From Amphiscolops sp. MND2022 (taxonomy: Eukaryota): 64,000 nucleotides of DNA. This document shows, piece by piece, positions 11,233-64,000 of this stretch. The notes under the pieces were generated by a model. That model had not been told where the DNA came from. It made no database searches and saw nothing but the letters and a program-made list of their open reading frames with translations. Each line of letters starts with the position of its first letter. Position 1 is the stretch's first letter. Location: the NCBI GenBank assembly GCA_964187785.1, contig OZ076409.1, positions 16,184,001-16,248,000 on the forward strand, written 5' to 3'. The position numbers and the translations under genes were made by a program.

Positions 11233-12335
11233 AACGATTGAAAATGATATCAATTGTAATACAACTTCTCCTTATCGTCACAATACCATTTATTGTTTAG
11301 AGTTTAACTCACCTTTTTCCGATATTCCAATGGCTTATCTGCTAGTATCGAACTCTGGGCCCAGCATAGTAGCATATGGAGATTGAAAACCATTAATCGC
11401 CCAAAATGCAGACATTTATTGAATAAATTGCAACAAACACGTGACCAAGGCTTACAACAGAAATCCTTGACCTACAAAATTGGTTTGAATCTTTATGCTC
11501 ACAGTACAACTGAAAGTTTTTTTGATTGTTCAATTGACAACACCCCGTCATTCAATAGAATACACTTCAAAGCGAAATTAGTGGCTTTGAATTCCTATTC
11601 AACTAAGAAGATTGCATTTCGACCGATCAGAACAAAAAGCAAGTTGATTGCACCTTGAAACTGAAAACTGTTTGGTGTCCACCAAAAAATGTTCAGATGG
11701 AAAGGCCTAATTATTCGATTTAGTTTTTCCAGTTAGTTATCCTTAAAGTTCTGCGACACACTTCCGATTATGGTAAACGTGAGCCGATTTTCCAGCGTTG
11801 AGAATAGAGTCTTGCAGTTTTAGTTCCAAATGGCAAGATCTTTTGTGGATTCAAAAATAACTACTTCATGAAACTTCTACGAAATAGCTCCCATATGCCA
11901 AAACCATTGGAGCTTGAATGATGCAGGCAAAAGTAGCGTTACACTCAATTAAAGATGCAAGATTCGATGTTAACTTTTAACAACACAATATGAAAACTGG
12001 CAAAAATCACTCGATCTGGAAATAGCCGGTAAGATAACCGTTATTGCTTTCAGGTTTCGTTTTTCCTCAGTAGTGTACTTTTGAGAACTGACATTTTTGA
12101 GGCTTTGTCAGCTGGCAGAGAGGCTTAGCAACGATTGATTCTGAAAAGATTTTGTCCAGTAATTTCACATTTGATGAGATTGTTTTGGTCATTGTTCCAA
12201 AGTGTTTTGCCATTGGGTTAGTTTTTGTCATTAGGCTTTTGAAGACTTTAATTAATACTGAGATTTTGAAAGTAGAATGATAATGAGGTATTTTATCCAG
12301 TTTCATAGTATTTATGACTTGACCTCGGAGATTAA

Positions 12336-12604
12336 TGTACTGACCTACATTAATAACCAATAGTATTTAGATGTTTATAGAATGTTCTAGAATGTACATT
12401 TATTTGTTATTGAATGATTGTAAATCTCTACTCCCTCAGAGAGAGAAAACTAATAATCAGTATTTGGTTGACTTCCTTTTGGTTCTGCTTTTACCACCTC
12501 GAACTAGTTGTAGTAAAGTTAGCTAGCTAGCCTGTCTCTTAGCCGCTTTTAGTAGTTGTGAATAAGACCATCCAAAGAAGTAACCAACCATTAAAAGCAG
12601 CACA
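12336..12604 (+). repeat. 5' LTR of giant element
   Basis: Direct repeat of 30389-30657; about 12 mismatches counted by eye. Confidence 0.95.
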
Positions 12605-24104: not shown

Positions 24105-24106
24105 CC

Positions 24107-34060: not shown

Positions 34061-34084
34061 GACTTTACGTACGCAGATATTTTG

Positions 34085-43000: not shown

Positions 43001-43743
43001 TTACTTGCGTAACAGTGGTTTTAGGCGCACCACTAAGGGAAAAGATTATTCCAGTGCTTTTGAAAGACTGTCCACGCTGACTAAGTTATTTAAAAAAGTC
43101 TGATTGAGGGAATCGAACTCAAGACATTGGAATGGAAATCTAACACGCAACCACTACGCCATTGAATGTTGAAAAGATGTTAAAAATGGACCACGTTATT
43201 AGAAAGAGTCCAAAAATCCCTATGTTGAAAGATTTGCCGCCCTCCAAGGTAAGCATTTCAAATCAAAAATTGGACGAATTCAGAATGCTATGTTCGGTAT
43301 GTGTCAAATTAAACAACCAAGTTGGGTGCAATAACACTCTATCAATTCAAGTGCTGAACAAATTCCATCCCCGGGGACCGAACCCAAAGATACCAGAACA
43401 ACGCTATACCAAATCTAACCACCAACGCAACCTCTACGCCACGATATCTTGCGAAACAGTGGTTTTAGGCGCACCACTAAGGGAAAGATTATTCCAGTGC
43501 TTTTGAAAGACTGTCCCTGTTGACTAAGATATTAGAAAATTTTTGATTGAGGGAGTCCAACTCAAGACATTGGAATAGAAATCTAACACGCAACCACTTG
43601 GCCATTGATTGTTGAAAAGATGTGTAAAAATGGACAACGTTATTGGAAAGAGTCCAAAAATCCCTGTGTTGAAAGATTTGCCGCTTCCAAAGTAAGCATT
43701 CAAATTCAAATTTTAGACGAAATCAGAATGCTTTATTCGGTAT
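34085..43743. repeat. Tandem satellite, ~445-bp monomer, ~21-22 copies
   Basis: Recurring track ORFs at 444-448 bp spacing (42274, 42718, 43162; ends 38842, 39290, 39734). Confidence 0.97.
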
Positions 43744-45439: not shown

Positions 45440-46237
45440 TTTTTGTCAGAAATGTGGTTTAACTTCGGTGACAGTTTTGCAAAAGGGATCAAATTGAAAA
45501 GATAGCAAAAAACGGACAACGCCATTAGAAAGAGCGTCCAAAAAAACCCCCATGCTGAAATTTTCGCCGCCATCACTTGAATTTTCATTGAGTTATGTCA
45601 TTTTTACTATTTTCACAAAATGTGGTTTAACTTCGGTGACAGTTTTGAAAAAGGGGTCAAAATGAACAGATAGAAAAAAACGGACAACGGCATTGGAAAG
45701 AGGGCCCAAAATTACCCCTAAAACGTGTTTTTCACACTCCTGAGTCGACTTTTGATAATACATGGAATTTCATTTTTAAGCTTACTAATTTATGCTTTTC
45801 AGCATACATTTTCGTAATAGAGTCAAAATTTTGCTTTCTCACAATTTTTCTGGAATATTTTTGTTTCATCAGATGTCAATAACTTGAAACGTCGTCTTTT
45901 CATGAGAATTTCTCCTCAAAACAAGTTGTTGGCTGGTAATGGTAAGTCCGTACCGCAGATAGGACTCTCGCGCTCCAAAAATTGACTCTTTGCTTTTAGC
46001 CTAATTGTTGTGATATCCACGAGGCGTTACTCTGCCAAAATTGGAAATCTCTCATTTCTGAGTTAAATTAACTCAGCGAAACTGTCTTAAATTGTTTCTC
46101 TTCTTCAAACAACGTACCATTCTTACAAGCAATTTTATTGTACTGTATTAGAAAAACTACTGTTTTTCGAAACGTTACTTTAACTTTCTGGGCATTTTGC
46201 TCCTCATTGCCGACAAGGCAAACAATAATCCAACCTC

Positions 46238-48397
46238 ATGGATGAAACACCAACTCACGACAGTCAAAAGCCTTCGAAAACCTTGGATAATTCTCCACGA
46301 AATATTCGAAAAAACCAAGGTCAAAATTTCTTAGAAAATTCATTGGTTACAACAGGAGAAATTTCAAATACTTCGCCCAAATGTAGCAAAAAATTCTCGC
46401 CTTACAAATCACCGGCAGGCCATCCTAAAGAGGCGTCAATCTACACTTCGGATGGCAAATTTCAAGGCAGGGCTCCCCCTCAAAGCCCGAAAGACTCAAA
46501 GCGTAAAAACGCAAAAAACTTTACATCAAAAATTATCAACTCTCAGGAAACTATAAATGCCACAAACTTACCAAATTATCAACAACAACAGCCACAGTTA
46601 CCATTTACAACTCATCGATTGCCTCAAGACCCTAGCAAAAGAGTCAAAATGGTGGATTTCAACGAAGAAAATTTTACATGCAATTCTGGCCCAGAAATTA
46701 CGATAACGTATTCCGGCAACACACTGCAAAATAATATTACACCCACTTACACCAATGCAAAGCCAGCTCATCCTTCTACAACTGGCAACTCAAACTACAA
46801 CCCAAGGGAGGACTCTGGGCCAAATATCGCTCCAAACAACCCACCCAATGTGGAGAACGACCACAAAAACAAGAAAAATCCACTTCAAGAAAGTCAGGTA
46901 GAAAGCTATATTCCTACAACCCAAAACAACAAAAACTCTGAAGCTATTACTGTTGCGACCCAAATGCAACGTACTACGCTTCTCAATTTGCTAAATACAG
47001 GCCGATACGTTTCTCCTGAAGAACGTAGACGTATCCACAATGCTATTGAGGCAATAGCTAACGAAAGTTCCAGTAATGCCTTTAGTGAAATCTTTCCTGA
47101 ACTCTCTGCCCAGAATCAGCAAAAACAAACAAATGCTGATGACAGCAGTCATGCTACAAAACAACCAGCTTCCAACTACAATTCAAGAGCACTAGAACAA
47201 GCAATCGCTGCCACAATTAACGCCATAAACCCACCAGCTGAGGAACTATACACACAAACAATCAGAAATAGCGGATCCCCAAATGAATCAAAGAACAGCC
47301 ACCCACAATCCTACTCTCAGGCAACCTTTTCAAGGTCTCCTACCACGCAAGTGGTAAGCAAAATCCACAAGCTAAGAATAGTGCCTCCCTTGAGAAAAGA
47401 ACATTTCTCCAATAACAACACGTTGGAAGCCGAAATTACAAGAGCATACAAAGATATCCTAACAGCCTTCTCGCCAAATATACGAAATTTGATAACGATA
47501 TCACGAACCAACGTCAAAGTGGCAAACAAAACATACCAAGTCCTCCAGGTAATTGCTCCAGAAAGCGCTGAGCCAGACATTACCAGAATGAAACTGAATG
47601 GTCTAACGATCATGGGCAGAACTGTCTTTCCGACATCTGAGGACTTCTGGCAGGTCCGGAATTCATTCTACCCAAAAACACCGACCATACGAATCAGCAA
47701 TGTCCCAGTGCTATGCGATGACGATGCTCTAATTGAAGCTCTACAATTCCCATCATTCCTTGAATTTGGTCTAAAAGAAAGGGAAACAAAACAGACAGAA
47801 ATTGGCCCAGTTCATACTGGGAAAACTGCTATACAAATAAAGATAAACTCTGAAGATGAAGAAGCCGAGATGCGATCCTGGTCCTTTCATAAAGCCTACA
47901 CTTGCCCAGCAGAATGGCTAGGAGTCGAAATTCCAGCCAGCATACCGAAACTCCACATATGCAAGAAATGCAAAGAAGAAAAGATATCTCAATTCCGAGG
48001 CCACGAAGAGGAATGGTGCAGAATACGCAGAACCCCTCTCACTCCTCCAGTATCCGAAATCACAGAAGGGGCATCCACTAGCGTCATGCCTGAAGAAAGA
48101 AACAAAGCACAACTTCAATCAGTAGAAGCCCCAGGAGCCGAAAACATTCGGTCCGAAGATAGGCAGATCGACAGCGACAACCCAGATGAAGACGACTCTT
48201 CAGATAATCAAGATGACAACTGGCAAACAGTACAGAAGAAAGGACAGAAGAGAACCAAAAAGCAACCCTCAGAAGCTTCCAAAAACTCTCGAAACAGCAG
48301 CCCTGTGAAAGAACCCACCGCAAAGCAAGCAGCTCTACAACCAATCTGTATCAACAACAAACCCAACCCTCAAAAAACGGTAAATAATGATACTTAA
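46238..48397 (+). CDS. ORF1 protein (low-complexity N-terminus, RRM-like region, CCHC knuckle), 719 aa
   Basis: YPKTPTIRISNVP...HTGKTAIQI...CKKC-x10-H-x4-C; DNWQTVQKK basic tail as in L1/Tx1 ORF1. Confidence 0.9.
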   Translation: MDETPTHDSQKPSKTLDNSPRNIRKNQGQNFLENSLVTTGEISNTSPKCSKKFSPYKSPAGHPKEASIYTSDGKFQGRAPPQSPKDSKRKNAKNFTSKIINSQETINATNLPNYQQQQPQLPFTTHRLPQDPSKRVKMVDFNEENFTCNSGPEITITYSGNTLQNNITPTYTNAKPAHPSTTGNSNYNPREDSGPNIAPNNPPNVENDHKNKKNPLQESQVESYIPTTQNNKNSEAITVATQMQRTTLLNLLNTGRYVSPEERRRIHNAIEAIANESSSNAFSEIFPELSAQNQQKQTNADDSSHATKQPASNYNSRALEQAIAATINAINPPAEELYTQTIRNSGSPNESKNSHPQSYSQATFSRSPTTQVVSKIHKLRIVPPLRKEHFSNNNTLEAEITRAYKDILTAFSPNIRNLITISRTNVKVANKTYQVLQVIAPESAEPDITRMKLNGLTIMGRTVFPTSEDFWQVRNSFYPKTPTIRISNVPVLCDDDALIEALQFPSFLEFGLKERETKQTEIGPVHTGKTAIQIKINSEDEEAEMRSWSFHKAYTCPAEWLGVEIPASIPKLHICKKCKEEKISQFRGHEEEWCRIRRTPLTPPVSEITEGASTSVMPEERNKAQLQSVEAPGAENIRSEDRQIDSDNPDEDDSSDNQDDNWQTVQKKGQKRTKKQPSEASKNSRNSSPVKEPTAKQAALQPICINNKPNPQKTVNNDT

Positions 48398-51300
48398 TCT
48401 TGTTAATCTTGTATGTGTGAACATCAGAGGCCTTGCTAACCCAGCAAAGCTTCTCGAAATCTGTGAAAAAAGTAAAACCTTAGATAAAAACCAACAGTCA
48501 TGTATTTTCATACAAGAAACAAAATTAACCAAAATGAAGGAGGAACATATACGAATCTTAGAAAAATATAAACTAAAGAGTAAAGAGGTTCCTGCTACAG
48601 GAAACTCAGGGGGGCTTCTAACACTCATTCCAAAAAACATTGATCATCAAATACTCATGAAAAGCCTTAGCTGCCTTGCAGTGAAAATAATTAGAAATAA
48701 TTGTGAAATGGTCCTCGTTAACACATATATCAACCCCAAAGATTTCAAAGCTAGAAATTTCTGTGCGTCTATTCAGGAGCCAAACCTAAACCCATCCCAA
48801 AACATCCTCGTAGCAGGGGATTTGAATGCAATAGATGCTGAAGACATAGGAAAAACTAAAGAACTTTGCTACCCTATTAAAAACAACGATATCAGAGTAA
48901 TTCGTCATAAAATAATACAGTCTCATTCGAACTCTTTACTGTTAAAGGACATGGCAAAGGAACAAAATGAAATTTTACCGACACATTTCGATCGTAGAAC
49001 AAAAAAATTCAGCAGAATTGACTATGTCTTCAGCAACTATACGAATCAGAATCAGAAAATCGAAATTGTCAATTTCACGTCATCGGATCATAAGTGCCTC
49101 TTTTTAAAAAACCAGGAAGAAAACACCAATAATTCTCCCTCCTACTGGAAACTAAATGACTCTGTGCTGGACGATAGTAATCGCATTAATGAAATCCTGA
49201 AAACCTCAATTTCAAAGCTTCAGAACAAAAGCATGCTAACTGAAACATACGATGAATTTAAAGCAAGTATTAGAGATGACCTTCGGCAATTATGCATTGA
49301 AAAAAGAAATGCTGAAAACATTGTTGAAAAACAACTCAAAAATAACCTAAGACAACTTGAACTTAAACTTTCAGAGAGTGCAAATTCAATGGAATTAATT
49401 GCAAAAATCCAACAAGAAGTTGATCGAAAAAATGACGAGTTGGGCGTACTACTGGACAAACGCAACCAACAAGAACTGAAAAAAATAAAAAATTTCTTTA
49501 ACGAAGCCTTTGAAGGCAATCCTAAACATGTTAAACAATTAGTATCAGCCCTCCGTCTGAGCACAAGAATTTCAAAATTGGAAAAAGACAGCGGTGAAAA
49601 AATTCAATCTCAAAATGATATAGTTGCGGAACTAACCTCATTCTATAAAAAACTTTATCAGTACAATGCTCCTGGAAATCGAAGCACAACTGGGTCCTCC
49701 ATACAACAGAAGAAATACCTCGAGAAATACTTGAAAAGAATTGAGAATAGGCTTGCTACCTATGATAGGACGAATATAAATGAAGATGAAATCTTAGAAT
49801 ACGAAGTTGAAAAAGCAATTCTAAAACTGAATAAAAACAGTGCCCCAGGACCGGATGGTCTCACCGCTGGCCTTTTCCAAAATCAAATAAAATTCTTTGT
49901 GCCTTTGCTTACAGACCTATTTAATGAAATTTTAACTAAAAACCGGCCTCCTCCTTCATTTACTCTTGCAATAATCAAACTACTCCCGGAAAAATCTAAC
50001 ACAATAAAAAAAGCCTCTGATCTTAGGCCAATAAGTCTAATAAACACAGACCAAAAAATACTATCACACGTGCTAGCTAATCGAATCAAACCACTTTTTG
50101 ACACAATAATAGGACAACATCAATATGCTCATCTTACAGAACGAAATATCCACACTGCAATAACGAAAATTAGACAATATTCAACGTGCCTGAAGAAAAA
50201 CGACAGCTTATGCGCTCTAGATTTTACAAAAGCATTTGACTGCGTCAACAGGGACTTCCTAATTGCCATATTGAAACAACTACCAATATCAGAAACAACT
50301 ATAAAACTAATCGAGCAAGTATATAAAAACACAACATCCATCATTGACATCAACTCTGAATTCTCCGAACCAATAATTATTACAAAAGGGGTAAGACAAG
50401 GATGCCCCCTCTCTGCATTGCTCTTCATCCTAGTTATAGAACCTCTACTTGAAAAAATACAACGATCAAAAAAATTAAAAACACCAAATCATCAAAAAAT
50501 CATTGCCTTTGCAGATGATATAACAGTGTCCATCAAAAACAACTCAATAAACAATTTAATTAAAATCCTTGACGAGTTTGAAAATGTCTCTGGTCTCGCT
50601 ATTAATTACGAAAAGTCAGAGCTTCTAACCAAAAATCAAAAAATTTTATTCACAAACCCAGAAAAAAACTGAAAATTGTCAATCGAGTCAAAATCCTTGG
50701 AGTGTTCATAACAACAAAATCAAGTATAGACAGTGAAACAAAAAACAAGATCGACACAATTGTTAACCAATCAACAAAGTTCACCTCTCAAAACATGAGT
50801 TTCAGAGCCAGAGCTATTAACCTAGAAACATTCATTCTATCCAAAATATTCTACCAATTACGACACTTCGCGAAAAACAAATCATATATGAAAAAATTAA
50901 ACTCCAAAATAGTGGACCAGTTCTGGAATCATAAGAAACACAACGTTAATCAAGAAATTTTACATACCAGTAGACAAGAAAGCGGAATAGGACTAAAGAA
51001 TCTGAACAAAGCCGTAACAATAGCAAAAATCATGAATTTGAAAGTTTCCCTCCAAGGTAAAAACAATCAAAATAATCACAACGATTTCCAAGTTTCAAAC
51101 TGGTACAAGCAAATTGCAAAAGACCTGAAAAACGAAAACATTGAGATAATAGAAGTATCCAATGATACTCTAAAGATACAACACCTCTTTCAACCCATTG
51201 AAATAACCAGAAACACAAAATCGAGCGAAATTCTCTCAATAATACAAAAATCAACAATCAATATTGCATGCATCCCCCGTGTTGCAAAAACGGCCATGAA

Positions 51301-51706
51301 ACAAGGAATAACCATGGACTGTGTCCAGGGGGTTCTGGCAAAACTATGGAACAGAAAAAATCTACGATCATTTGATAAAAATTACATATACTGTTTCATG
51401 ATGAACGCCTACCTAGATAAACAAGAGAATTGGGGAAAAAACCTTGTTCCTCATCCTCTCTGCTTCCAATGCGGAACTCATTTCGAAACATTCAGTCATT
51501 TAATGTTTGACTGTCCACAAACACAGAACTTGAAAACAAAACTCAAATACACAAATTGGGATCAAGTCTGGAACGATAAAACAGGCAAATCACAAAAACT
51601 ACTAGTCGCCTTTATCCTATCGTCATGGTCGGAAGAAGAAGGGTCGTACCTAAAGTTTTTTCGAAACACGTATACTTCCAACTACCAACCACCTCAAGAA
51701 ACCTAA
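48387..51706 (+). CDS. ORF2 protein (AP endonuclease, RT, C-terminal Zn finger) with one frameshift near 50662-50668
   Basis: NIRGL, IQETK, AGDLN, SRIDY, SDH; APGPDG, RPISLIN, DFTKAFD, GVRQGCPLS, FADD; resumes in another frame as VKILGVF; CFQC..ETFSHLMFDC. Confidence 0.93.
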
Positions 51707-51970
51707 ACAGAGCCAACCGACACCCAAGCCGAAACACCCAAAACAACATAAAAAAACAAAAAAAAACTTCAAAAAAAAAACGAAAAAGTAATCCAGTTCA
51801 CACATACATCCTGAAGCATTTATATTATACTTATGTTACTCTCAGATTTTGTTGTACCATTTATTGTACCTTTTGTTACTTTTATTACCTATGTGGTTTT
51901 GTTGTACTTCCATTAGACTAAAGTTTGTAACATTTTTGTTAGCGTAAAGTTTACAATAAAGTCTTCAAAA

Positions 51971-52103
51971 GCCTACTTGTTGTGATAAACTTATTAAATA
52001 GGTAAGTATTCCAACCTATTGATAAGTTTTATTTGAAAGCAGACTGCGAAAGTGGTCTGCTGCCCAATTTTCGAACAAGGAACAAGCTAGTCTGCACTAA
52101 CTT
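51971..52103 (+). ncRNA. Putative SL RNA sequence regenerated downstream of the LINE
   Basis: TSD restores the leader (one substitution); donor, hairpins and Sm site present; separated from upstream spacer. Confidence 0.65.
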
Positions 52104-52195
52104 AAAAGTTACGCGTATTTTGACCGAGAAAATTTTCGTATCCTTGTACGTAATTTTGTTGTTAAGCATATAAAGCTATTGATTCTACAATGATC

Positions 52196-52314
52196 GGCTA
52201 CGACCATACCATGTTGAATGCACCGGTTCTCGTCCGATCACCGAAGTTAAACAACATAGGGCCTGGTTAGTACTTGGATGGGAGACCGCTTGGGAACACC
52301 AGGTGTTGTAGCCT
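52196..52314 (+). rRNA. 5S rRNA
   Basis: Canonical 5S, T6 terminator. Confidence 0.98.
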
Positions 52315-52873
52315 TTTTTGTCAGAAATGTGGTTTAACTTCGGATACAGTTTTGCAAAAGGTGTCAAATTGAAAAGATAGCAAAAAACGGACAACGCCAT
52401 TAGAAAGAACGTCCAAAAAAACCCCCATGCTGAAATTTTCGCCGCCATCACTTGAATTTTCATTGAGTTATGTCATTTTTACTATTTTCACAAAATGTGG
52501 TTTAACTTCGGTGACAGTTTTGCAAAAGGGGTCAAAATGAACAGATAGCAAAAAACGGACAACGGCACTGGAAAGAGGGCCCAAAATTACCCCTAAAACG
52601 TGTTTTTCACACTCCTGAGTCGACTTTTGATAATACATGGAATTTCATTTTTAAGCTTACTAATTTATGCTTTTCAGCATACATTTTCGTAATAGAGTCA
52701 AAATTTTGCTTTCTCACAATTTTTCTGGAATATTTTTGTTTCATCAGATGTCAATAACTTGAAACGTCGTCTTTTCATGAGAATTTCTCCTCAAAACAAG
52801 TTGTTGGCTGGTAATGGTAAGTCCGTACCGCAGATAGGACTCTCGCGCTCCAAAAATTGACTCTTTGCTTTTA

Positions 52874-53007
52874 GCCTAATTGTTGTGATAAACTTATTAA
52901 ATAGGTAAGTATTCCAACCCTATTGATAAGTTTTATTTGAAAGCAGACTGCGAAAGTGGTCTGCTGCCCAATTTTTGAACAAGGAACAAGCTAGTCTGCA
53001 CTAACTT
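52874..53007 (+). ncRNA. Putative SL RNA gene, intact consensus copy
   Basis: Leader GCCTAATTGTTGTGATAAACTTATTAAATAG|GTAAGT; stem ATAAACTTATTAAATAGG/CCTATTGATAAGTTTTAT; GAAA-loop hairpin AGCAGAC..GTCTGCT; Sm site AATTTTTGA; 3' hairpin; ends approximate. Confidence 0.8.
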
Positions 53008-53099
53008 AAAAGTTACGCGTATTTTGACCGAGAAAATTTTCGTATCATTGTACGTAATTTTGTTGTTAAGCATATAAAGCTATTGATTCTACAATGATC

Positions 53100-53218
53100 G
53101 GCTACGACCATACCATGTTGAATGCACCGGTTCTCGTCCGATCACCGAAGTTAAACAACATAGGGCCTGGTTAGTACTTGGATGGGAGACCGCTTGGGAA
53201 CACCAGGTGTTGTAGCCT
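53100..53218 (+). rRNA. 5S rRNA
   Basis: Canonical 5S, T6 terminator; TATAAA about 27 nt upstream. Confidence 0.98.
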
Positions 53219-53794
53219 TTTTTGTCAGAAATGTGGTTTAACTTCGGTGACAGTTTTGCAAAAGGGGTAAAATTGAAAAGATAGCAAAAAACGGACAACG
53301 CCATTAGAAAGAGCGTCCAAAAAAACCCCCATGCTGAAATTTTCGCCGCCATCACTTGAATTTTCATTGAGTTATGTCATTTTTACTATTTTCACAAAAT
53401 GTGGTTTAACTTCAATGACAGTTTTGCAAAAGGAGTCAAAATGACCAGATAGCAAAAAACGGACAACGGCATTGGAAAGAGGGCCCAAAATTACCCCTAA
53501 AACGTGTTTTTCACACTCCTGAGTCGACTTTTGATAATACATGGAATTTCATTTTTAAGCTTACTAATTTATGCTTTTCAGCATACATTTTCGTAATAGA
53601 GTCAAAATTTTGCTTTCTCGCAATTTTTCTGGAATAAGTTTGTTTCATCAGATGTCAATAACTTGAAACGTCGTCTTTTCATGAGAATTTCTCCTCAAAA
53701 CAAGTTGTTGGCTGGTAATGGTAAGTCCGTACCGCAGATAGGACTCTCGCGCTCCAAAAATTGACTCTTTGCTTTTAGCCTAATTGTTGTGATA

Positions 53795-55777
53795 CGGCGT
53801 TACTCTGTCAGCCTGCAAACTTTGTTTGCACAGCGCCATCTTGCAAATTTTGCAGCAAAAGTTGCAAAAGTAATGACTAATTTGAACACGAGTGAGCTTG
53901 ATCAACATCATAATGAAAATGTTGAGCAAAATTGTTACAAAAATGCAGTTATTTCCTTGTCGAAATCGAACTCAAATATGGACAAATTACCAATTATTAT
54001 CAACTTTGCCTTACCACTGACATCTGAAATGTTCAAAAACAGCAAATTACTGGATTCAATGTTTGTGGAAGCTGTTATGGCCGTCAAAAACCGACTTAAC
54101 TCCAATGAAATTACCATCTTCAAAACTACAATTTTACGCAACAAAGGCAATTTGAAGTGTATTACTGTGATCATTCCTTAAAAACTTGAAAATGCAGCTT
54201 CCTCTCTTATTCACGAGGGCATTACTCTTCGCAATCGGAAAATACGGCCTTATTCTGTCAATTATTCCAACCCGAACAACAATGTCTATCCAAAAAGATT
54301 ACCAATATCTTTCCGAAACCTACCACACTTTCTGACGGATGAGGATATTTTGAGTAGCTGTGGTCTTCAAAACTTCAAATTTAGTAGCAAAATTTTTCAT
54401 CAACAACGACGACTTCCTGATAGCAGCCTTTTTTATACAGGAGAGGCAAGAATTACAGTTTTAATTGACAATGAGAATGAGGAAAGTTTACTACAAAACT
54501 GGGCCAATAATGCATATGACAAAATGTTTAGTTCCAGTGGCATTTTTTTCAAATGTTGCTGTATCCCACTCCTCGAATGCTCTTTATGCGTCAATGAGAA
54601 CCTTCCCAGTGCTCATCAACAATCAAGATGCCCAAAACAACTATCAGACGAACAGCAAATACAGAAAAACAGTGAATCTCAGAACCAGAAGTTAACAACT
54701 GACTACGTTATGGAAACTGCAGAAACAGAGCCAATGTCTAATGAACCTGAACTGTCAGATTCAGATGATGCTGAACCAATCTCAAAGGCACCAAAGCAGA
54801 CCGATGATGGTACTGAAACCGAATGCAACAACAACGTGGCAGAAACTGAACAACCATGCATTAACAACTCAAAGAAAGATACCATTCCTATGCAAAAACC
54901 TAAACTAATGCATCGCTCAACTGAATGGAAATCCTCAACAGACCTTGCCCGAAATCAAGCAGATGACCAACAGTCAACGGCAAAGCATGGATATCATGAA
55001 TACCCATTCTTTTTGGAAAAGAAACAAAACAAAATACTGGCACCCGAAACTATTTTCAACGAAATACCTCCTATAAAAGAACATGTGATCAAAACCCAAC
55101 AAACTTCTGGCTACATCAATACACTAGACAAGGAAAAGAAAATTCAAAGGACCTTTTCACTCGTACAACCACTGAAGAAAGAAAAACTCGAAGATCTTTT
55201 ATCTGAATCAAACTGGAAACATTCTGACTCTAACACTATTTTAACTTCTCATTTGGAATTTTACTCATTGATCCGGAAGTTTGATCCATTCTATGATGCT
55301 ACAAACCACCAAATTTACACTATTAATCTGGAGAATAAAATTGTACAAGTTTTCACTGCAGTTGAAAACTTATACAATGAAAACAAAAACTAAACTGAAA
55401 AATTTCGGACCTTTTCGACTGGAACTTTAAAGTTCTAAATCTCTACAATACCATCATCAATCAACCCAATTCCCAATTCTTTTCGAGCACTAGTTGTTCG
55501 CAACCTGTATGCAAAAAACGGGTTTTGAAAACAAACTCCTTCCAGGAGCAAACATCTTTTTTCATACATTCTCCAAACTACATTATACTAACTTCATACC
55601 TAAAAAAAAAACATTCCCATTTTGGCGCTTTCTCAAAAATGCCATAACCAAGCATCTTCATCTACATACTTCAGCTTTTTCAACACTTCAGTTACTCATA
55701 TACTCATTTTATACCTATACCTTAGACTTCATTACTTTTTACTTGTAAATTCTCAGTTTTCAATAAATTCTTTAAAA
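53795..55777 (+). mobile_element. Non-autonomous ORF1-only retroelement, family A copy 1
   Basis: Perfect 17-bp TSD 53778-53794 and 55778-55794; no RT or endonuclease; AATAAA..TTTAAAA end. Confidence 0.9.
53873..55393 (+). pseudogene. Family A ORF1-like gene with one premature stop
   Basis: TAA at 54179-54181 where copy 2 has TAC; otherwise colinear with 60578-62098. Confidence 0.88.
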
Positions 55778-55914
55778 GCCTAATTGTTGTGATAAACTTA
55801 TTAAATAGGTAAGTATTCCAACCCTATTGATAAGTTTTATTATTTGAAAGCAGACTGCGAAAGTGGTCTGCTGCCCAATTTTTGAACAAGGAACAAGCTA
55901 GTCTGCACTAACTT
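55778..55914 (+). ncRNA. Putative SL RNA sequence downstream of insertion
   Basis: Consensus with 3-nt insertion (TTATTATTTG). Confidence 0.65.
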
Positions 55915-56125: not shown

Positions 56126-56701
56126 TTTTTGTCAGAAATGTGGTTTAACTTCGGTGACAGTTTTGCAAAAGGGGTCAAATTGAAAAGATAGCAAAAAACG
56201 GACAACGCCATTAGAAAGAGCGTCCAAAAAAACCCCCATGCTGAAATTTTCGCCGCCCTCACTTGAATTTTCATTGAGTTATGTCATTTTTACTATTTTC
56301 ACAAAATGTGGTTTAACTTCGGTGACAGTTTTGCAAAAGGGGTCAAAATGAACAGATAGCAAAAAACGGACAACGGCATTGGAAAGAGGGCCCAAAATTA
56401 CCCCTAAAACGTGTTTTTCACACTCCTGAGTCGACTTTTGATAATACATGGAATTTCATTTTTAAGCTTACTAATTTATGCTTTTCAGCATACATTTTCG
56501 TAATAGAGTCAAAATTTTGCTTTCTCGCAATTTTTCTGGAATATTTTTGTTTCATCAGATGTCAATAACTTGAAACGTCGTCTTTTCATGAGAATTTCTC
56601 CTCAAAACAAGTTGTTGGCTGGTAATGGTAAGTCCGTACCGCAGATAGGACTCTCGCGCTCCAAAAATTGACTCTTTGCTTTTAGCCTAATTGTTGTGAT
56701 A

Positions 56702-58132
56702 CTGCGGTAGCAGCAATTATTTGACCAAATTCATTCTCTCTCGCATCTGCTGAGGCAGGGACGATTATCTCACTTGAAAGAATGCCTAATTTCCTTACAT
56801 TGGACTTTATAATACCTTACTCCAAAGAAGAAATTACTAATCCTTCTCTAAAGCTTGTTACTTACAAAAGCTTTCTTTGCTCGTTACTTAAATGTTTACC
56901 TAGTGACGCTGTTAAACGCGTGACCTGCATGAAATCGCACGTGTACAAACATGCGCCGCACGAAAAGAAACTTGAGAGCGTCAAAGTTATCGGTCCAATT
57001 TCATTACAAAACGAGTTTAATTCCATTATTTCTGATGGAATTTTGTTCAAAACTCGCAAGATTTATGCTCTACAAAACCATGATGTTACGTCCAATGCTT
57101 ACCCCAAGCAATTTACGATCAAATTTCGTAATTTACCACACTTCTTTTCTGATACCGATGTTATTTCGGCTTGCAATTTGAAAGATTTCAAACTTTCAAA
57201 GTTACGACACCAATTAGAGAAACTTTCTGAGGAAATTGAAACCTACACAGGCATTTGTTATGCGGATGTGGAAATCCAGGACGAAGCCCAATTACAACAG
57301 CTCATTTCATGGAATGAAACCAGCTTTTTGAACAAATACTATCTAGAAGAAATTCCATTTAAATGCCAAATTCAAATATTACTACAATGCGATTTCTGCA
57401 AACAAAAGAAGCTCCAGTTTTTGGGGCACCATGTACGCCAATGCAAAGCCAAAAAGACACAATTAGAACCAGAATCTGAGGAAGATAGCATCTCAACTAC
57501 GAAAACAAATGAAGAAAAAGAACTAGAAGCCACAGATGCAAACAAGAATAACCCAGAACATACTTTCTATATTGATTTAGAAAAATGCCAAATTCGAAAC
57601 ATACATGACATGGACGAACTCCATAAAGGATTTAGCAAGCTTCTTGCTTTACAGGAATGCAAGCCTGTGAATGTCTTGAATGACAACAATATAGTGATAA
57701 ACCAACTACGACATGTGAAGAATATTACTGAAGAAAAACAGCGGAAGCTTTTCAAACAACAAAACATATGGGGAAGTCCTTCATCAGACGTCCCAATCAA
57801 GAACTTCTCAGAGTTTTGTGAACTCCGGGGAAAGCTAGATGTGTTCTACGACTCAACAAAAGGCGAAGAAACCCTTTACCTGATGAACCTATCCAAGAAA
57901 GTGACCCACATTTTCAAAAAGAAACAACAACCAAACTAACAAAACTACATTATACTAATTTTCAAACTTTGATTTCCATGTTAAATCAAAACTCTCATAT
58001 TATACAATCATCACCAAGTCTTTCATTTACTTAATACTATAAGTATGCTAAGTTATTCATACTCAACACTTTAGTATTAATGTAAAGACTATTTGATTTA
58101 TAAAGGCAAATTTCCAAATACATTCTTTAAAA
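56702..58132 (+). mobile_element. Non-autonomous ORF1-only retroelement, family B copy 1
   Basis: TSD 56685-56701 and 58133-58149; single ORF; TTCTTTAAAA end. Confidence 0.9.
56782..57939 (+). CDS. Family B ORF1-like protein, 385 aa
   Basis: YPKQFTIKFRNLPHF, YTGICYADV, CDFC-x9-H-x4-C, plus C-terminal domain shared with family A. Confidence 0.88.
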   Translation: MPNFLTLDFIIPYSKEEITNPSLKLVTYKSFLCSLLKCLPSDAVKRVTCMKSHVYKHAPHEKKLESVKVIGPISLQNEFNSIISDGILFKTRKIYALQNHDVTSNAYPKQFTIKFRNLPHFFSDTDVISACNLKDFKLSKLRHQLEKLSEEIETYTGICYADVEIQDEAQLQQLISWNETSFLNKYYLEEIPFKCQIQILLQCDFCKQKKLQFLGHHVRQCKAKKTQLEPESEEDSISTTKTNEEKELEATDANKNNPEHTFYIDLEKCQIRNIHDMDELHKGFSKLLALQECKPVNVLNDNNIVINQLRHVKNITEEKQRKLFKQQNIWGSPSSDVPIKNFSEFCELRGKLDVFYDSTKGEETLYLMNLSKKVTHIFKKKQQPN

Positions 58133-58149
58133 GCCTAATTGTTGTGATA

Positions 58150-59579
58150 CTGCGGTAGCAGCAATTATTTGACCAAATTATTCTCTCTCGCATCTGCTGA
58201 GGCAGGGACGATTATCTCACTTGAAAGAATGCCTAATTTCCTTACATTGGACTTTATAATACCTTACTCCAAAGAAGAAATTACTAATCCTTCTCTAAAG
58301 CTTGTTACTTACAAAAGCTTTCTTTGCTCGTTACTTAATTGTTTACCTAGTGACGCTGTTAAACGCGTGACCTGCATGAAATCGCACGTGTACAAACATG
58401 CGCCGTACGAAAAGAAACTTGAGAGCGTCAAAGTTATCGGTCCAATTTCATTACAAAACCAGTTTAATTCCATTATTTCTGATGGAATTTTGTTCAAAAA
58501 TCGCAAGATTTATGCTCTACAAAACCATGATGTTACGTCCAATGCTTACCCCAAGCAATTTACGATCAAATTTCGTAATTTACCACACTTCTTTCCTGAT
58601 ACCGATGTTATTTCGGCTTGCAATTTGAAAGATTTCAAACTTTCAAAGTTACGACACCAATTAGAGAAACTTTCTGAGGAAATTGAAACCTACACAGGCA
58701 TTTGTTATGCGGATGTGGAAATCCAGGACGAAGCCCAATTACAACAGCTCATTTCATGGAATGAAACCAGCTTTTTGAACAAATACTATCTAGAAGAAAT
58801 TCCATTTAAATGCCAAATTCAAACATTACTACAATGCGATTTCTGCAGACAAAAGAAGCTCCAGTTTTTGGGGCACCATGTACGCCAATGCAAAGCCAAA
58901 AAGACACAATTAGAACCAGAATCTGAGGAAGATAGCATCTCAACCACGAAAACAAATGAAGAAAAAGAACTAGAAGCCACAGATGCAAACAAGAATAACA
59001 CAGAACATACTTTCTATATTGATTTAGAAAAATGCCAAATTCGAAACATACATGACATGGACGAACTCCATAAAGGATTTAGCAAGCTTCTTGCTTTACA
59101 GGAATGCAAGCCTGTGAATGTCTTGAATGACAACAATGTAGTGATAAACCAACTACGACATGTGAAGAATATTACTGAAGAAAAACAGCGGAAGCTTTTC
59201 AAACAACAAAACAGATGGGGAAGTCCTTCATCAGACGTCCCAATCAAGAACTTCTCAGAGTTTTGTGAACTCCGGGGAAAGCTAGATGTGTTCTACGACT
59301 CAACAAAAGGCGAAGAAACCCTTTACCTGATGAACCTATCCAAGAAAGTGACCCACATTTTCAAAAAGAAACAACAACCAAACTAACAAAACTACATTAT
59401 ACTAATTTTCAAACTTTGATTTCCATGTTAAATCAAAACTCTCATATTATACAATCATCACCAAGTCTTTCATTTACTCAATACTATAAGTATGCTAAGT
59501 TATTCATACTCAACACTTTAGTATTAATGTAAAGACTATTTGATTTATAAAGGCAAATTTCCAAATACATTCTTTAAAA
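58150..59579 (+). mobile_element. Non-autonomous ORF1-only retroelement, family B copy 2 (tandem)
   Basis: TSD 58133-58149 and 59580-59596; near-identical to copy 1. Confidence 0.9.
58229..59386 (+). CDS. Family B ORF1-like protein, 385 aa
   Basis: First ATG at 58229 (track starts at an upstream TTG); 10 aa differences from copy 1. Confidence 0.88.
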   Translation: MPNFLTLDFIIPYSKEEITNPSLKLVTYKSFLCSLLNCLPSDAVKRVTCMKSHVYKHAPYEKKLESVKVIGPISLQNQFNSIISDGILFKNRKIYALQNHDVTSNAYPKQFTIKFRNLPHFFPDTDVISACNLKDFKLSKLRHQLEKLSEEIETYTGICYADVEIQDEAQLQQLISWNETSFLNKYYLEEIPFKCQIQTLLQCDFCRQKKLQFLGHHVRQCKAKKTQLEPESEEDSISTTKTNEEKELEATDANKNNTEHTFYIDLEKCQIRNIHDMDELHKGFSKLLALQECKPVNVLNDNNVVINQLRHVKNITEEKQRKLFKQQNRWGSPSSDVPIKNFSEFCELRGKLDVFYDSTKGEETLYLMNLSKKVTHIFKKKQQPN

Positions 59580-59924: not shown

Positions 59925-60499
59925 TTTTTGTCAGAAATGTGGTTTAACTTCGGTGACAGTTTTGCAAAAGGGGTCAAATTGAAAAGATAGCAAAAAACGG
60001 ACAACGCCATTAGAAAGAGCGTCCAAAAAAACCCCCATGCTGAAATTTTCGCCGCCATCACTTGAATTTTCATTGAGTTATGTCATTTTTACTATTTTCA
60101 CAAAATGTGGTTTAACTTCGGTGACAGTTTTGCAAAAGGGGTCAAAATGAACAGATAGCAAAAAACGGACAACGGCATTGGAAAGAGGGCCCAAAATTAC
60201 CCCTAAAACGTGTTTTTCACACTCCTGAGTCGACTTTTGATAATACATGGAATTTCATTTTAAGCTTACTAATTTATGCTTTTCAGCATACATTTTCGTA
60301 ATAGAGTCAAAATTTTGCTTTCTCGCAATTTTTCTGGAATATTTTTGTTTCATCAGATGTCAATAACTTGAAACGTCGTCTTTTCATGAGAATTTCTCCT
60401 CAAAACAAGTTGTTGGCTGGTAATGGTAAGTCCGTACCGCAGATAGGACTCTCGCGCTCCAAAAATTGACTCTTTGCTTTTAGCCTAATTGTTGTGATA

Positions 60500-62480
60500 C
60501 GGCGTTACTCTGTCAGCCTGCAAACTTTGTTTGCACAGCGCCATCTTGCAAATTTTGCAGCAAAAGTTGCAAAAGTAATGACTAATTTGAACACGAGTGA
60601 GCTTGATCAACATCATAATGAAAATGTTGAGCAAAATTGTTACAAAAATGCAGTTATTTCCTTGTCGAAATCGAACTCAAATATGGACAAATTACCAATT
60701 ATTATCAACTTTGCCTTACCACTGACATCTGAAATGTTCAAAAACAGCAAATTACTGGATTCAATGTTTGTGGAAGCTGTTATGGCTGTCAAAAACCGAC
60801 TTAACTCCAATGAAATTACCATCTTCAAAACTACAATTTTACGCAACAAAGGCAATTTGAAGTGTATTACTGTGATCATTCCTTACAAACTTGAAAATGC
60901 AGCTTCCTCTCTTATTCACGAGGGCATTACTCTTCGCAATCGGAAAATACGGCCTTATTCTGTCAATTATTCCAACCCGAACAACAATGTCTATCCAAAA
61001 AGATTACCAATATCTTTCCGAAACCTACCACACTTTCTGACGGATGAGGAAATTTTGAGTAGCTGTGGTCTTCAAAACTTCAAATTTAGTAGCAAAATTT
61101 TTCATCAACAACGACGACTTCCTGATAGCAGCCTTTTTTATACAGGAGAGGCAAGAATTACAGTTTTAATTGACAATGAGAATGAGGAAAGTTTACTACA
61201 AAACTGGGCCAATAATGCATATGACAAAATGTTTAGTTCCAGTGGCATTTTTTTCAAATGTTGCTGTATCCCACTCCTCGAATGCTCTTTATGCGTCAAT
61301 GAGAACCTTCCCAGTGCTCATCAACAATCAAGATGCCCAAAACAACTATCAGACGAACAGCAAATACAGAAAAACAGTGAATCTCAGAACCAGAAGTTAA
61401 CAACTGACTACGTTATGGAAACTGCAGAAACAGAGCCAATGTCTAATGAACCTGAACTGTCAGATTCAGATGATGCTGAACCAATCTCAAAGGCGCCAAA
61501 GCAGACCGATGATGGTACTGAAACCGAATGCAATAACAACGTGGCAGAAACTGAACAACCATGCATTAACAACTCAAAGAAAGATACCATTCCTATGCAA
61601 AAACCTAAACTAATGCATCGCTCAACTGAATGGGAATCCTCAACAGACCTTGCCCGAAATCAAGCAGATGACCAACAGTCAACGGCAAAGCATGGATATC
61701 ATGAATACCCATTCTTTTTGGAAAAGAAACAAAACAAAATACTGGCACCCGAAACTATTTTCAACGAAATACCTCCTATAAAAGAACATGTGATCAAAAC
61801 CCAACAAACTTCTGGCTACATCAATACACTAGACAAGGAAAAGAAAATTGAAAGGACCTTTTCACTCGTACAACCACTGAAGAAAGAAAAACTCGAAGAT
61901 CTTTTATCTGAATCAAACTGGAAACATTCTGACTCTAACACTATTTTAACTTCTCATTTTGAATTTTACTCATTGATCCGGAAGTTTGACCCATTCTATG
62001 ATGCTAAAAACCACCAAATTTACACTATTAATCTGGAGAATAAAACTGTACAAGTTTTCACTGCAGTTGAAAACTTATACAATGAAAACGAAAACTAAAC
62101 TGAAAAAATTCGGACCTTTTTGACTGGAACTTTAAAGTTCTAAATCTCTACAATACCATCATCAATCAACCCAATTCCCAATTCTTTTCGAGCACTAGTT
62201 GTTCGCAACCTGTATGCAAAAAACGGGTTTTGAGAACAAACTCCTTCCAGGAGCAAACATCTTTTTTCATACATTCTCCAAACTACATTATACTAACTTC
62301 ATACCAAAAAAAAACATTCCCATTTTGGCGCTTTCTCAAAAATGCCATAACCAAGCATCTTCATCTACATACTTAAGTTTTTTCAACACTTCAGTTACTC
62401 ATATACTCATTTTATACATATACCTTAGACTTCATTACTTTTTACTTGTAAATTCTCAGTTTTCAATAAATTCTTTAAAA
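60500..62480 (+). mobile_element. Non-autonomous ORF1-only retroelement, family A copy 2
   Basis: Perfect TSD 60483-60499 and 62481-62497. Confidence 0.9.
60578..62098 (+). CDS. Family A ORF1-like protein, 506 aa from first ATG
   Basis: YPKRLPISFRNLPHF, YTGEARITV, CSLC-x8-H-x4-C, acidic linker, C-terminal domain; track start GTG lies inside the TSD. Confidence 0.88.
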   Translation: MTNLNTSELDQHHNENVEQNCYKNAVISLSKSNSNMDKLPIIINFALPLTSEMFKNSKLLDSMFVEAVMAVKNRLNSNEITIFKTTILRNKGNLKCITVIIPYKLENAASSLIHEGITLRNRKIRPYSVNYSNPNNNVYPKRLPISFRNLPHFLTDEEILSSCGLQNFKFSSKIFHQQRRLPDSSLFYTGEARITVLIDNENEESLLQNWANNAYDKMFSSSGIFFKCCCIPLLECSLCVNENLPSAHQQSRCPKQLSDEQQIQKNSESQNQKLTTDYVMETAETEPMSNEPELSDSDDAEPISKAPKQTDDGTETECNNNVAETEQPCINNSKKDTIPMQKPKLMHRSTEWESSTDLARNQADDQQSTAKHGYHEYPFFLEKKQNKILAPETIFNEIPPIKEHVIKTQQTSGYINTLDKEKKIERTFSLVQPLKKEKLEDLLSESNWKHSDSNTILTSHFEFYSLIRKFDPFYDAKNHQIYTINLENKTVQVFTAVENLYNENEN

Positions 62481-62825: not shown

Positions 62826-63401
62826 TTTTTGTCAGAAATGTGGTTTAACTTCGGTGACAGTTTTGCAAAAGGGGTCAAATTGAAAAGATAGCAAAAAACG
62901 AACAACGCCATTAGAAAGAGCGTCCAAAAAAACCCCCATGCTGAAATTTTCGCCGCCATCACTTGAATTTTCATTGAGTTATGTCATTTTTACTATTTTC
63001 ACAAAATGTGGTTTAACTTCGGTGACAGTTTTGCAAAAGGGGTCAAAATGAACAGATAGCAAAAAACGGACAACGGCACTGGAAAGAGGGCCCAAAATTA
63101 CCCCTAAAACGTGTTTTTCACACTCCTGAGTCGACTTTTGATAATACATGGAATTTCATTTTTAAGCTTACTAATTTATGCTTTTCAGCATACATTTTCG
63201 TAATAGAGTCAAAATTTTGCTTTCTCGCAATTTTTCTGGAATATTTTTGTTTCATCAGATGTCAATAACTTGAAACGTCGTCTTTTCATGAGAATTTCTC
63301 CTCAAAACAAGTTGTTGGCTGGTAATGGTAAGTCCGTACCGCAGATAGGACTCTCGCGCTCCAAAAATTGACTCTTTGCTTTTAGCCTAATTGTTGTGAT
63401 A

Positions 63402-64000
63402 CTGCGTGTGTCAGCAATTATTTGCTAACTCTACTCTCACTGCTGCGGCAGAGAAGACGAAAATTACCTGAACAATGCCTTTATTGACAGCAGAATTCAT
63501 CATTCCTTACACAAAAGAAGAAATTACCAGCCCAAACATAAAGCAAGCTGTTTACAAAGAATTCCTTTGCAAGCTTTTACATGCTTTATCGCCTACTCAT
63601 ATTGACAGCGTGACATGCATTAAATCGTATGTGTCCAAACATGCGCCAGCGCATGAGCATGAAAAGAAGCTTGAATGCATCAAAATTATTGCTCCAAACT
63701 CGATAGAAAACGACTTCAAAAACCTACTTCTTAAAGGAATTCCTTACAAAAACCGGATAATTTATGCATTCCAAAACAGTGATGTTTATTCTAACTCCTA
63801 CCCAAAGCAATTCACTTTGAAATTCCGCAATTTACCACACTTTTTAGAAGATGGAGAGATCGTGGAGGCTTGTAATCTGCAAGAGTACAAAATTTCCAAA
63901 TTACGCCACCAAAGAGTAAGAATTTCTGACGACATCGAAGCCTTTACTGGAATCTGTTATGCTGAAATAGAGATTGCCAATCAATGCCAATTAGAAAACA
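63402..64000 (+). mobile_element. Family C insertion (related to B), truncated by window end
   Basis: Starts right after GCCTAATTGTTGTGATA (63385-63401); 5' end CTGCG..CAGCAATTATTTG resembles family B. Confidence 0.85.
63475..64000 (+). CDS. Family C ORF1-like protein, partial (absent from ORF track)
   Basis: Hand translation MPLLTAEFIIPYTKEEITSP...YPKQFTLKFRNLPHFL...FTGICYAEI, open to window end; colinear with family B. Confidence 0.85.
   Translation, partial: MPLLTAEFIIPYTKEEITSPNIKQAVYKEFLCKLLHALSPTHIDSVTCIKSYVSKHAPAHEHEKKLECIKIIAPNSIENDFKNLLLKGIPYKNRIIYAFQNSDVYSNSYPKQFTLKFRNLPHFLEDGEIVEACNLQEYKISKLRHQRVRISDDIEAFTGICYAEIEIANQCQLEN

What the first reader, a model, noticed from the sequence alone, without database searches (positions are those of the whole stretch)
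45999..51987. AP-endonuclease (L1/Tx1-type) element specific for an SL exon
Known: the classic SL-targeting retrotransposons (SLACS/CRE/CZAR in trypanosomatids, NeSL-1 in C. elegans) use a C-terminal restriction-like endonuclease. Tx1-clade APE elements are known to target U2 snRNA, tRNA arrays and 5S. Seen: an N-terminal APE domain and an SL target. Inference: independent, convergent evolution of SL targeting.
Basis: partly seen in the sequence, partly recalled or inferred. Interest (0 to 1): 0.75.

Follow-up and report, generated by a model that had tools for sequence, protein, structure and literature searches.

The report
L1-type retrotransposons targeting acoel spliced leader
In an acoel worm's spliced-leader/5S gene array, a LINE-1-like retrotransposon and several smaller passenger elements have all inserted at one nucleotide of the spliced-leader exon, a target otherwise described for retrotransposons that use a different kind of DNA-cutting enzyme.

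Summary
Confirmed and extended. 46,015-51,970 is a two-ORF L1-group element (APE-RT-CCHC; one frameshift in this copy, intact 98% relatives exist) with a 16-18 bp target duplication inside an SL exon. The target is a real SL: it matches the published acoel (Symsagittifera roscoffensis) leader and heads 8 housekeeping-gene contigs. Specificity is shown by independent insertions at the same nucleotide: five ORF1-only (HAL1-like) copies of three further families in the same array, and two ORF2-coding relatives (41% identical) in metagenome contigs whose SL genes differ from the window's. All 7 complete 3' ends share one terminal motif and exactly four A's, no poly(A) tail. No restriction-like endonuclease is present, so SL targeting arose independently of CRE/SLACS and NeSL. 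The lineage forms its own clade; Tx1 membership is unresolved. The ORF1-only proteins carry tandem RRMs plus a C-terminal domain with no clear fold match. Limits: no genome-wide flank survey, no reads, no Repbase; one ORF1-only family looks dispersed. No APE-type SL-targeting element was found in six literature searches.

The parts
45992..46014 (+). 5' part of the interrupted SL exon (most likely +1 at 45,992; could start up to 7 nt earlier), still behind the SL gene's upstream flank
   Evidence: flank 98% identical to an intact unit; conservation with L014 and 3 of 8 leader-headed contigs begin here
45999..46014 (+). left target-site duplication (16 bp; 17-18 with ambiguous A's)
46015..51970 (+). 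autonomous-type L1-group element, family A, 5,956 bp
46238..48397 (+). ORF1, 719 aa: long low-complexity N-terminus, RRM-RRM-like core and CCHC knuckle
   Evidence: homology to the ORF1-only proteins, whose model is tandem RRM; exact sequence in a 10-member cluster
48387..51706 (+). ORF2: APE endonuclease, RT, C-terminal CCHC; this copy frameshifted at the A-run 50,662-50,668; overlaps ORF1 by 11 nt
   Evidence: intact 1,106-aa relatives P0121, P0133 at 98%
51955..51970 (+). 3' terminal motif AATA(A/C)A-(T/G)TCTT(C/T)-AAAA shared by all complete 3' ends
   Evidence: 7 of 7 complete ends
51971..52067 (+). right duplication plus the rest of the SL gene (exon end 52,001, donor, Sm-like site, last stem-loop), without promoter or first 7 exon nt
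52196..52314 (+). 5S rRNA gene of the same unit
   Evidence: Rfam RF00001, 117.5 bits
52867..52971 (+). intact SL RNA gene (empty target site), about 105 nt
   Evidence: conserved block against L014; fold z -3.16; published leader
53794..55777 (+). ORF1-only element, family B copy 1 (ORF 53,873-55,393 with a premature stop at 54,179-54,181), same site and duplication
56701..58132 (+). ORF1-only element, family C copy 1 (ORF 56,782-57,939)
58149..59579 (+). ORF1-only element, family C copy 2, in tandem with copy 1 across one 16-bp target copy (ORF 58,229-59,386; tandem RRM, CCHC-like knuckle, C-terminal domain 59,000-59,383)
60499..62480 (+). ORF1-only element, family B copy 2 (ORF 60,578-62,098)
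   Evidence: cluster of 77 members
63401..64000 (+). 5' part of family D element (68% DNA identity to C); runs off the window, so ORF1-only status is inferred from its likeness to C
12010..12340 (-). decayed relic outside the array: 3' end of a P0206-like ORF1-only element, the terminal motif, 7 nt of the SL target, then a piece of another ORF1-only ORF

Best explanation
An acoel lineage of L1-group non-LTR retrotransposons with an N-terminal AP-type endonuclease inserts site-specifically into the exon of SL RNA genes, and mobilises ORF1-only satellites into the same site. SHOWN: anatomy, SL identity, fixed insertion nucleotide in at least six sequence families, same orientation as the SL gene, 16-18 bp duplication, common 3' motif with exactly four A's, no 5'-truncated copy among the 6 in the array. 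INFERRED: ORF2p nicks the bottom strand opposite exon nt 6-8 (a T|A step before an A-run, the step human L1 endonuclease cuts; recalled) and the top strand after nt 23-24, and primes reverse transcription there. INFERRED, weaker (about 0.55): the RNA is made from the SL promoter, begins with the first 23-24 SL nucleotides and reads through a few nucleotides into the downstream SL copy, so base pairing with the target fixes both junctions; this explains the constant A4 and full-length 5' ends. INFERRED: families B, C and D, lacking RT, use ORF2p of an autonomous family in trans through the shared 3' motif. The origin is independent of the RLE-type SL elements.
For: All 13 matches (up to 2 substitutions) to the 16-mer lie on the + strand within the SL/5S array; 5 of 8 promoter-bearing SL units are interrupted, by 6 copies of 4 families, at one position. 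A shares no blastn match with B, C or D beyond the terminal 33-40 nt, so these are separate events. 2 of 19 metagenome loci with the leader motif are ORF2-coding relatives (41% to P0121, 68% to P0004, 71% to each other) ending at the same junction in SL genes whose downstream sequence differs from the window's. The smallest clade holding them and the window element has 8 rows, SH-aLRT 95, and its families share contig-length labels far above chance (49 pair sharings against means of 1.3-12.6; 0 of 2,000 simulations each). Best PDB match human L1 ORF2p over residues 7-873, E 4.9e-55; R2 only over the RT, E 8.5e-27. No PD-(D/E)xK pattern after residue 880 in 9 of 9 ORF2s, with only 53-66 residues behind the CCHC.
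Against: No genome-wide flank survey: flanks were read for 8 copies plus a relic, against clusters of 17 (ORF2), 10 (ORF1) and 77 (family B) members. The metagenome scan selected for the SL motif, so it could not show off-target copies. ORF1-only family P0205 shares only 1 of 7 contig labels, and ORF2 families 8, 9, 10 share 1 of 3, 2 of 13 and 0 of 6: parts of the wider lineage look dispersed or aim elsewhere. One relic lies 32 kb outside the array. L009 and L011 lack 5' ends, so their duplication is untested. No RNA data support the promoter and read-through steps. The APE hit of this copy is under Pfam's cut-off.
Confidence: 0.85

Rival explanations
1. Specificity comes mainly from RNA-DNA homology or tethering, not from the endonuclease: a fairly relaxed APE nicks T|A steps, and only nicks that can pair with the SL nucleotides carried at the RNA's ends (or that lie where snRNA-gene transcription factors tether the complex) are used.
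For: Constant A4 and no poly(A) at 7 of 7 ends; identical 5' ends within families; the relic outside the array keeps exactly 7 target nucleotides behind its 3' end, as a copied read-through would.
Against: Passages read state that target choice of non-LTR elements is mainly set by the endonuclease (PMC4494074); the duplication length is fixed across families, which needs a defined second nick; the relic is equally a rearranged array fragment.
Confidence: 0.3
2. One chance insertion spread by array homogenisation; no true target specificity.
For: The units are 96-100% alike; B1/B2 and C1/C2 are 99% identical and could be array duplicates.
Against: Four families with different sequence and length in one array, a tandem insertion, and two further families in SL genes with different downstream sequence, all at one nucleotide.
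Confidence: 0.03
3. It is an ordinary Tx1-clade family that switched target, as Keno (U2) and Mutsu (5S) did; new target, no new lineage.
For: Site specificity in small-RNA gene arrays is typical of Tx1 (PMC4494074); one FastTree run put the lineage in an 87-support group with Tx1-like rows; union with the broad Tx1-like set is not rejected, p 0.33.
Against: In some searches the lineage lies outside the Tx1-like and vertebrate L1 rows; union with the 9 core Tx1-like rows is weakly rejected, p 0.033, for a group named after seeing trees.
Confidence: 0.35
4. The SL sequence at the 5' end was added by trans-splicing of the element's RNA and then retrotransposed.
For: This does happen to other LINEs in these hosts: 8 of 19 loci show a whole leader before other retroelement-like ORFs.
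Against: Here the left flank is the genomic SL upstream region with only part of the exon, and the right flank carries the exon end, donor, intron and 5S gene.
Confidence: 0.01

Closest known systems
Tx1-clade site-specific elements (Tx1L, Keno in U2, Mutsu in 5S, Kibi/Koshi in microsatellites, Tx1-Mar)
   Same: APE-type L1-group elements of animals with a fixed site in a multicopy sequence (passages of PMC4494074, PMC4640811, PMC10946416); two ORFs; target duplication.
   Different: None of the targets named in the passages read is an SL exon; RT forms a separate long clade with unresolved attachment; ORF2 is about 1,070-1,110 aa against about 1,300 in the vertebrate Tx1-like rows; site shared with ORF1-only families.
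CRE clade (CRE1, SLACS, CZAR) and NeSL-1
   Same: Insertion into the SL exon; CRE elements make target duplications (passages of PMC3636483).
   Different: These are R2-group, single-ORF elements with a C-terminal PD-(D/E)xK endonuclease; here ORF1 plus ORF2, N-terminal APE, no RLE motif; NeSL makes target deletions; hosts are trypanosomatids and nematodes.
HAL1 (half-L1)
   Same: Non-autonomous L1 derivative coding only ORF1p (passage of PMC5753468).
   Different: Described from mammals; here site-specific, only 20-27% identical to the autonomous ORF1 of the window, diversified into at least five families, and with an extra C-terminal domain of about 125 aa absent from the autonomous ORF1.
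Human LINE-1
   Same: Best solved-structure match over APE and RT; RRM of the ORF1-only model matches L1 ORF1p RRM at Z 5.9 among many RRMs.
   Different: L1 is dispersed, mostly 5'-truncated and poly(A)-tailed (recalled); these copies are full length, tail-less and site-specific.

Membership tests
L1 group of non-LTR retrotransposons | APE domain N-terminal to RT in ORF2 | tested here: met
L1 group of non-LTR retrotransposons | RT closest to L1-type RTs | tested here: met
   PDB L1 ORF2p E 4.9e-55 against R2 8.5e-27; inside the 60-row ingroup, 99 support, against a 3-row outgroup
L1 group of non-LTR retrotransposons | separate ORF1 (RRM, CCHC) and C-terminal CCHC in ORF2; target duplication | tested here: met
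L1 clade proper (vertebrate-type LINE-1) | RT groups with vertebrate L1; variable poly(A) tail | tested here: not met
   vertebrate L1 rows form a 99-support clade without it (label); exactly four A's at 7 of 7 ends
Tx1 clade | RT groups with Tx1L, Keno, Mutsu, Dewa | tested here: inconclusive
   only proxy rows (one named YTX2); AU p 0.033 (core) and 0.33 (broad); placement differs
Tx1 clade | target-sequence preference in a multicopy sequence of an animal | tested here: met
CRE / NeSL clades | C-terminal restriction-like endonuclease | tested here: not met
   0 of 9 ORF2s with the pattern; 53-66 aa behind the CCHC
CRE / NeSL clades | single ORF, no APE | tested here: not met
CRE / NeSL clades | RT groups with CRE or NeSL | not testable with these tools
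   no CRE or NeSL protein was among the stored sequences; R2 used as stand-in
HAL1-like elements (families B, C) | codes only an ORF1 homologue, no RT, bounded by target duplications | tested here: met
HAL1-like elements (families B, C) | mobilised in trans by the partner's ORF2p | not testable with these tools
   inferred from shared site, duplication and 3' motif
SL RNA gene (target) | exon found joined at its donor to unrelated mRNAs | tested here: met
   8 of 19 loci, 8 of 8 with housekeeping Pfam domains; published leader
SL RNA gene (target) | donor in a stem-loop, single-stranded Sm-like site, 3' stem-loop | tested here: met
   fold z -3.16, 2 of 200 shuffles as good; the Sm assignment is by eye; no Rfam SL family matches
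SL RNA gene (target) | trimethyl cap and exact start | not testable with these tools
   exon 38 nt most likely, 38-45 possible; published form is 31 nt plus one A

The most novel reading that the evidence does not exclude
A third, independent origin of SL-exon targeting and the first with an AP endonuclease: an old acoel radiation whose RNA borrows the SL promoter and carries SL nucleotides at both ends so that RNA-target pairing fixes both junctions without a poly(A) tail, parasitised in turn by an ancient line of ORF1-only elements whose extra C-terminal domain (no clear match to any solved fold) is an adaptor for capturing ORF2p; together they fill most SL genes in parts of the array and could limit trans-splicing capacity.
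Probability: 0.3. Interest if true: 0.82.

Novelty: new variant of a known kind. Interest (0 to 1): 0.62.

Why it matters
It shows that SL genes were found as a safe harbour by a second endonuclease class, in a third host lineage, which makes convergence on this target a testable pattern. It supplies a set of diverged APE domains (40-66% ORF2 identity) that appear to share one site, next to sister families that do not co-locate, a natural series for finding what sets APE specificity, of use for site-specific RNA-templated insertion tools. It also shows site-specific ORF1-only parasites with an unassigned domain, and that 5 of 8 SL units in this stretch are interrupted in an animal reported to trans-splice about 30% of its genes.

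Tried and rejected
No whole genome was held and no sequencing run was listed, so no flank survey or read test. The 17-nt scan of viral contigs gave 10 loci, none with SL context: chance matches. The prokaryote-genome scan gave 9 distant RTs of 21-28% identity, uninformative. Rfam found no SL family or ribozyme in 45,900-64,000 even at E 5. ORF1 and the ORF1-only proteins have no Pfam family and no PDB sequence match. The C-terminal domain (pLDDT 84) gave no clear fold match: best Z 4.7, Foldseek E at least 0.1; this does not show a new fold. The Atlas gave no result. The complex prediction of ORF2 (1-868) with that domain gave no answer, run without alignments. A first fold from 52,860 suggested a 45-nt exon and an Sm site after the last stem-loop; rejected because neither is conserved in L014, L009 or L011. 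5S as target (Mutsu-like) rejected: the site is about 200 nt upstream, in the SL exon. Earlier notes of this scan held nothing.
Full report
Observation. The stretch 45,999-51,987 is a 5,956-bp element (46,015-51,970, + strand) with its two target duplications, 45,999-46,014 and 51,971-51,986, which differ at 1 of 16 bases; an A on each side is ambiguous, so the duplication is 16-18 bp. It has ORF1 (46,238-48,397, 719 aa) and ORF2 (from 48,387), the latter frameshifted at an A-run at 50,662-50,668; intact 1,106-aa relatives at 98% identity exist (P0121, P0133), and one other 98% copy ends at the same place. ORF2 hits RVT_1 (E 2.9e-32), Exo_endo_phos at residues 13-236 (E 4.3e-4, below the cut-off) and zf-RVT (E 1.7e-3). 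The APE motifs are present and align with human L1 ORF2p, the best solved match (residues 7-873, E 4.9e-55); R2 proteins match only over the RT (best E 8.5e-27). In 9 of 9 full-length lineage ORF2s the CCHC finger is followed by 53-66 residues and no PD-(D/E)xK pattern.

The target is an SL gene. It lies in a 904-bp repeat with a 5S gene. A full-text search with 25 nt of it returned 2 papers, both versions of the Symsagittifera roscoffensis genome paper; the passages read give the same sequence as the predominant leader and 30.2% of genes as trans-spliced (bioRxiv 10.1101/2022.08.27.505549; PMC9911081). I infer an acoel host, this species or a close relative. Independently, a metagenome scan gave 19 loci. 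In 8 of 19 the leader stands within 26 nt of the contig end and is joined at its donor to unrelated ORFs, all 8 with housekeeping Pfam domains (kinase, thioredoxin/PITH, epimerase-type, UEV, mitochondrial carrier, CCDC96, nucleoplasmin-like, DnaJ). L014 is an intact SL gene with 5S and a different spacer; it delimits a conserved block, 52,867-52,971 in the window, that folds with the donor in a stem-loop, an open U-rich stretch and a final hairpin (z -3.16). Three of the 8 contigs begin exactly at the start of that block, four begin inside it and one (L001) matches 4 nt further upstream, so the exon is most likely 38 nt, longer than the published 31. The duplication is then exon nt 8-23.

Specificity. 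All 13 matches to the 16-mer with up to 2 substitutions lie on the + strand in the array. Of 8 SL units that keep their upstream flank, 5 are interrupted, by 6 copies of 4 families, at the same nucleotide and in the same orientation: A (this element), B (53,794-55,777; 60,499-62,480), C (56,701-58,132 and 58,149-59,579, in tandem across one target copy) and D (from 63,401, cut by the window end). Of the 3 empty units one is perfect, one has two exon changes and one a change at donor +5. A has no DNA similarity to B, C or D beyond the last 33-40 nt; C and D are 68% alike. Two of the 19 metagenome loci, L009 and L011, code for ORF2s of the same lineage (41% to P0121, 68% to P0004, 71% to each other; L011 has two in-frame stops) and end at the same junction, in SL genes whose intron and downstream sequence differ from the window's and from L014; their 5' ends are missing. 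All 7 complete 3' ends share one motif and exactly four A's; the junction 14-mer occurs 6 times in the window, 0.00 expected. The sixth is a decayed relic at 12,010-12,340 (-), outside the array, that still keeps 7 target nucleotides.

Wider, indirect evidence. Ten ORF2 clusters at 32-98% identity stand far above all other hits. Using contig length as a label (at most 15 members listed per cluster: 15 of 17, 15 of 24, 15 of 43 and 15 of 77 for the four largest), 15 families share labels 49 times, against means of 12.6, 5.1 and 1.3 for 200, 500 and 2,000 equally likely contigs (0 of 2,000 simulations each). Sharing is high in the families of the 8-row clade that holds the window element, L009 and L011 (5 of 6, 5 of 6, 1 of 1, 3 of 5, 5 of 7, 3 of 5 labels) and in ORF1-only B (6 of 8) and P0206 (5 of 5), and low in families 8, 9, 10 (1 of 3, 2 of 13, 0 of 6), family 7 (0 of 1) and ORF1-only P0205 (1 of 7). 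This fits clustering in a few arrays but shows no flank; the low values mean SL specificity should not be extended to the whole lineage.

The ORF1-only elements. B, C and D proteins match the core of ORF1 at 20-27% identity (E 3e-15 to 2e-8); no RT is found in B or C. The model of C (pLDDT 74, 8 sequences) matches tandem-RRM proteins (best E 1.3e-4). B, C, P0205 and P0206 share a C-terminal domain of about 125 aa that the autonomous ORF1 lacks; it folds confidently alone (pLDDT 84). They therefore look like one old, separately evolving line, not fresh deletions of A. They work like HAL1 (definition from a passage of PMC5753468).

Phylogeny. In an IQ-TREE quick tree of 63 chosen RT rows (of 315) the 16 lineage rows form one clade (98), with two unnamed rows as sister (93), apart from vertebrate L1 (99; labelled through P0011, E 3.5e-203 to human ORF2p), named plant L1s and vertebrate Tx1-like rows (labelled through one protein named YTX2 and named fish and turtle neighbours). 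FastTree placements disagreed. AU tests: union with 9 core Tx1-like rows p 0.033, with 20 broad rows plus the two sisters p 0.33; both groups were named after seeing trees. No authentic Tx1L, Keno, Mutsu, CRE or NeSL sequence was in the tree. So it is an L1-group lineage; Tx1 membership is open.

Mechanism. Shown: site, orientation, duplication, shared 3' motif, full-length 5' ends in 6 of 6 array copies. Inferred from established target-primed reverse transcription: a bottom-strand nick opposite exon nt 6-8, which can be a T|A step as for human L1 (recalled), and a top-strand nick after nt 23-24. Inferred with less support: transcription from the SL promoter and short read-through into the downstream copy, so that RNA ends pair with the target; priming on a poly(A) tail should give variable A-runs, and none varies. 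Each insertion leaves a promoter with a cut exon and a promoterless rest, so the SL gene is probably lost, and both target copies remain usable, which explains the tandem. The satellites probably borrow ORF2p through the shared 3' motif.

Comparison and novelty. Passages read place SL-targeting CRE and NeSL in the single-ORF, RLE-bearing R2 group (PMC3636483; PMC4640811) and list Tx1 targets as transposons, U2, U5, 5S, satellites and microsatellites (PMC4494074; Mutsu in PMC10946416; PMC8869645). Six searches (listings and abstract starts seen, the papers named above read as passages only) showed no APE-type SL-targeting element and no note of one in acoels. The library lacks most subscription papers and Repbase; the supplement of PMC4494074 could not be read, and the text held of the supplement of PMC9911081 is short and shows no Tx1 entry, its repeat table perhaps being a picture. 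An unseen Repbase entry remains possible.

Verdict. Interest 0.62.

Noticed in passing
L004, L007, L008, L010, L013, L015, L016, L018: 8 of 19 loci carry a whole leader directly before other retroelement-like ORFs (six related to each other by tblastx; L007 has an RT; APE-like motifs read by eye), with no SL intron behind: probably genomic retrocopies of trans-spliced LINE RNAs, i.e. LINEs that use trans-splicing for their 5' end.
   Followed up: partly
window 12,010-12,340 (-): Decayed tandem relic of two ORF1-only elements with 7 nt of SL target between them, 32 kb from the array.
   Followed up: partly
window about 31,410-43,700: A ninth SL gene is cut about 10 nt into the exon by a sequence that starts like the reverse of a Helitron 3' end (hairpin plus CTAG; recalled motif), followed by a 447-bp tandem satellite with short similarity to the SL/5S spacer.
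   Followed up: no
window 14,400-28,400 (+): Broken LTR retroelement with gag, RT, RNase H, integrase and a Monjiviricetes-type fusion glycoprotein domain; a second LTR-type fragment lies at about 7,500-10,400 (-).
   Followed up: no
window 59,000-59,383 and 61,700-62,095: C-terminal domain of the ORF1-only proteins: folds confidently, no Pfam family and no clear structural match.
   Followed up: yes
window 52,867-52,904: The leader seems at least 7 nt longer at its 5' end than the published 31-nt form; SL and 5S genes are linked in a 904-bp unit here and also in L014.
   Followed up: partly
window 50,662-50,668: The same ORF2 frameshift end is seen in a second, 98% identical copy (P0001), so either recurrent homopolymer slippage or a defective subfamily moved in trans.
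   Followed up: no
5' UTRs of B, C, D (53,794; 56,701; 63,401 onward): Each has a pyrimidine-rich stretch ending in AG before the start codon, a possible trans-splice acceptor for translation; read by eye only.
   Followed up: no
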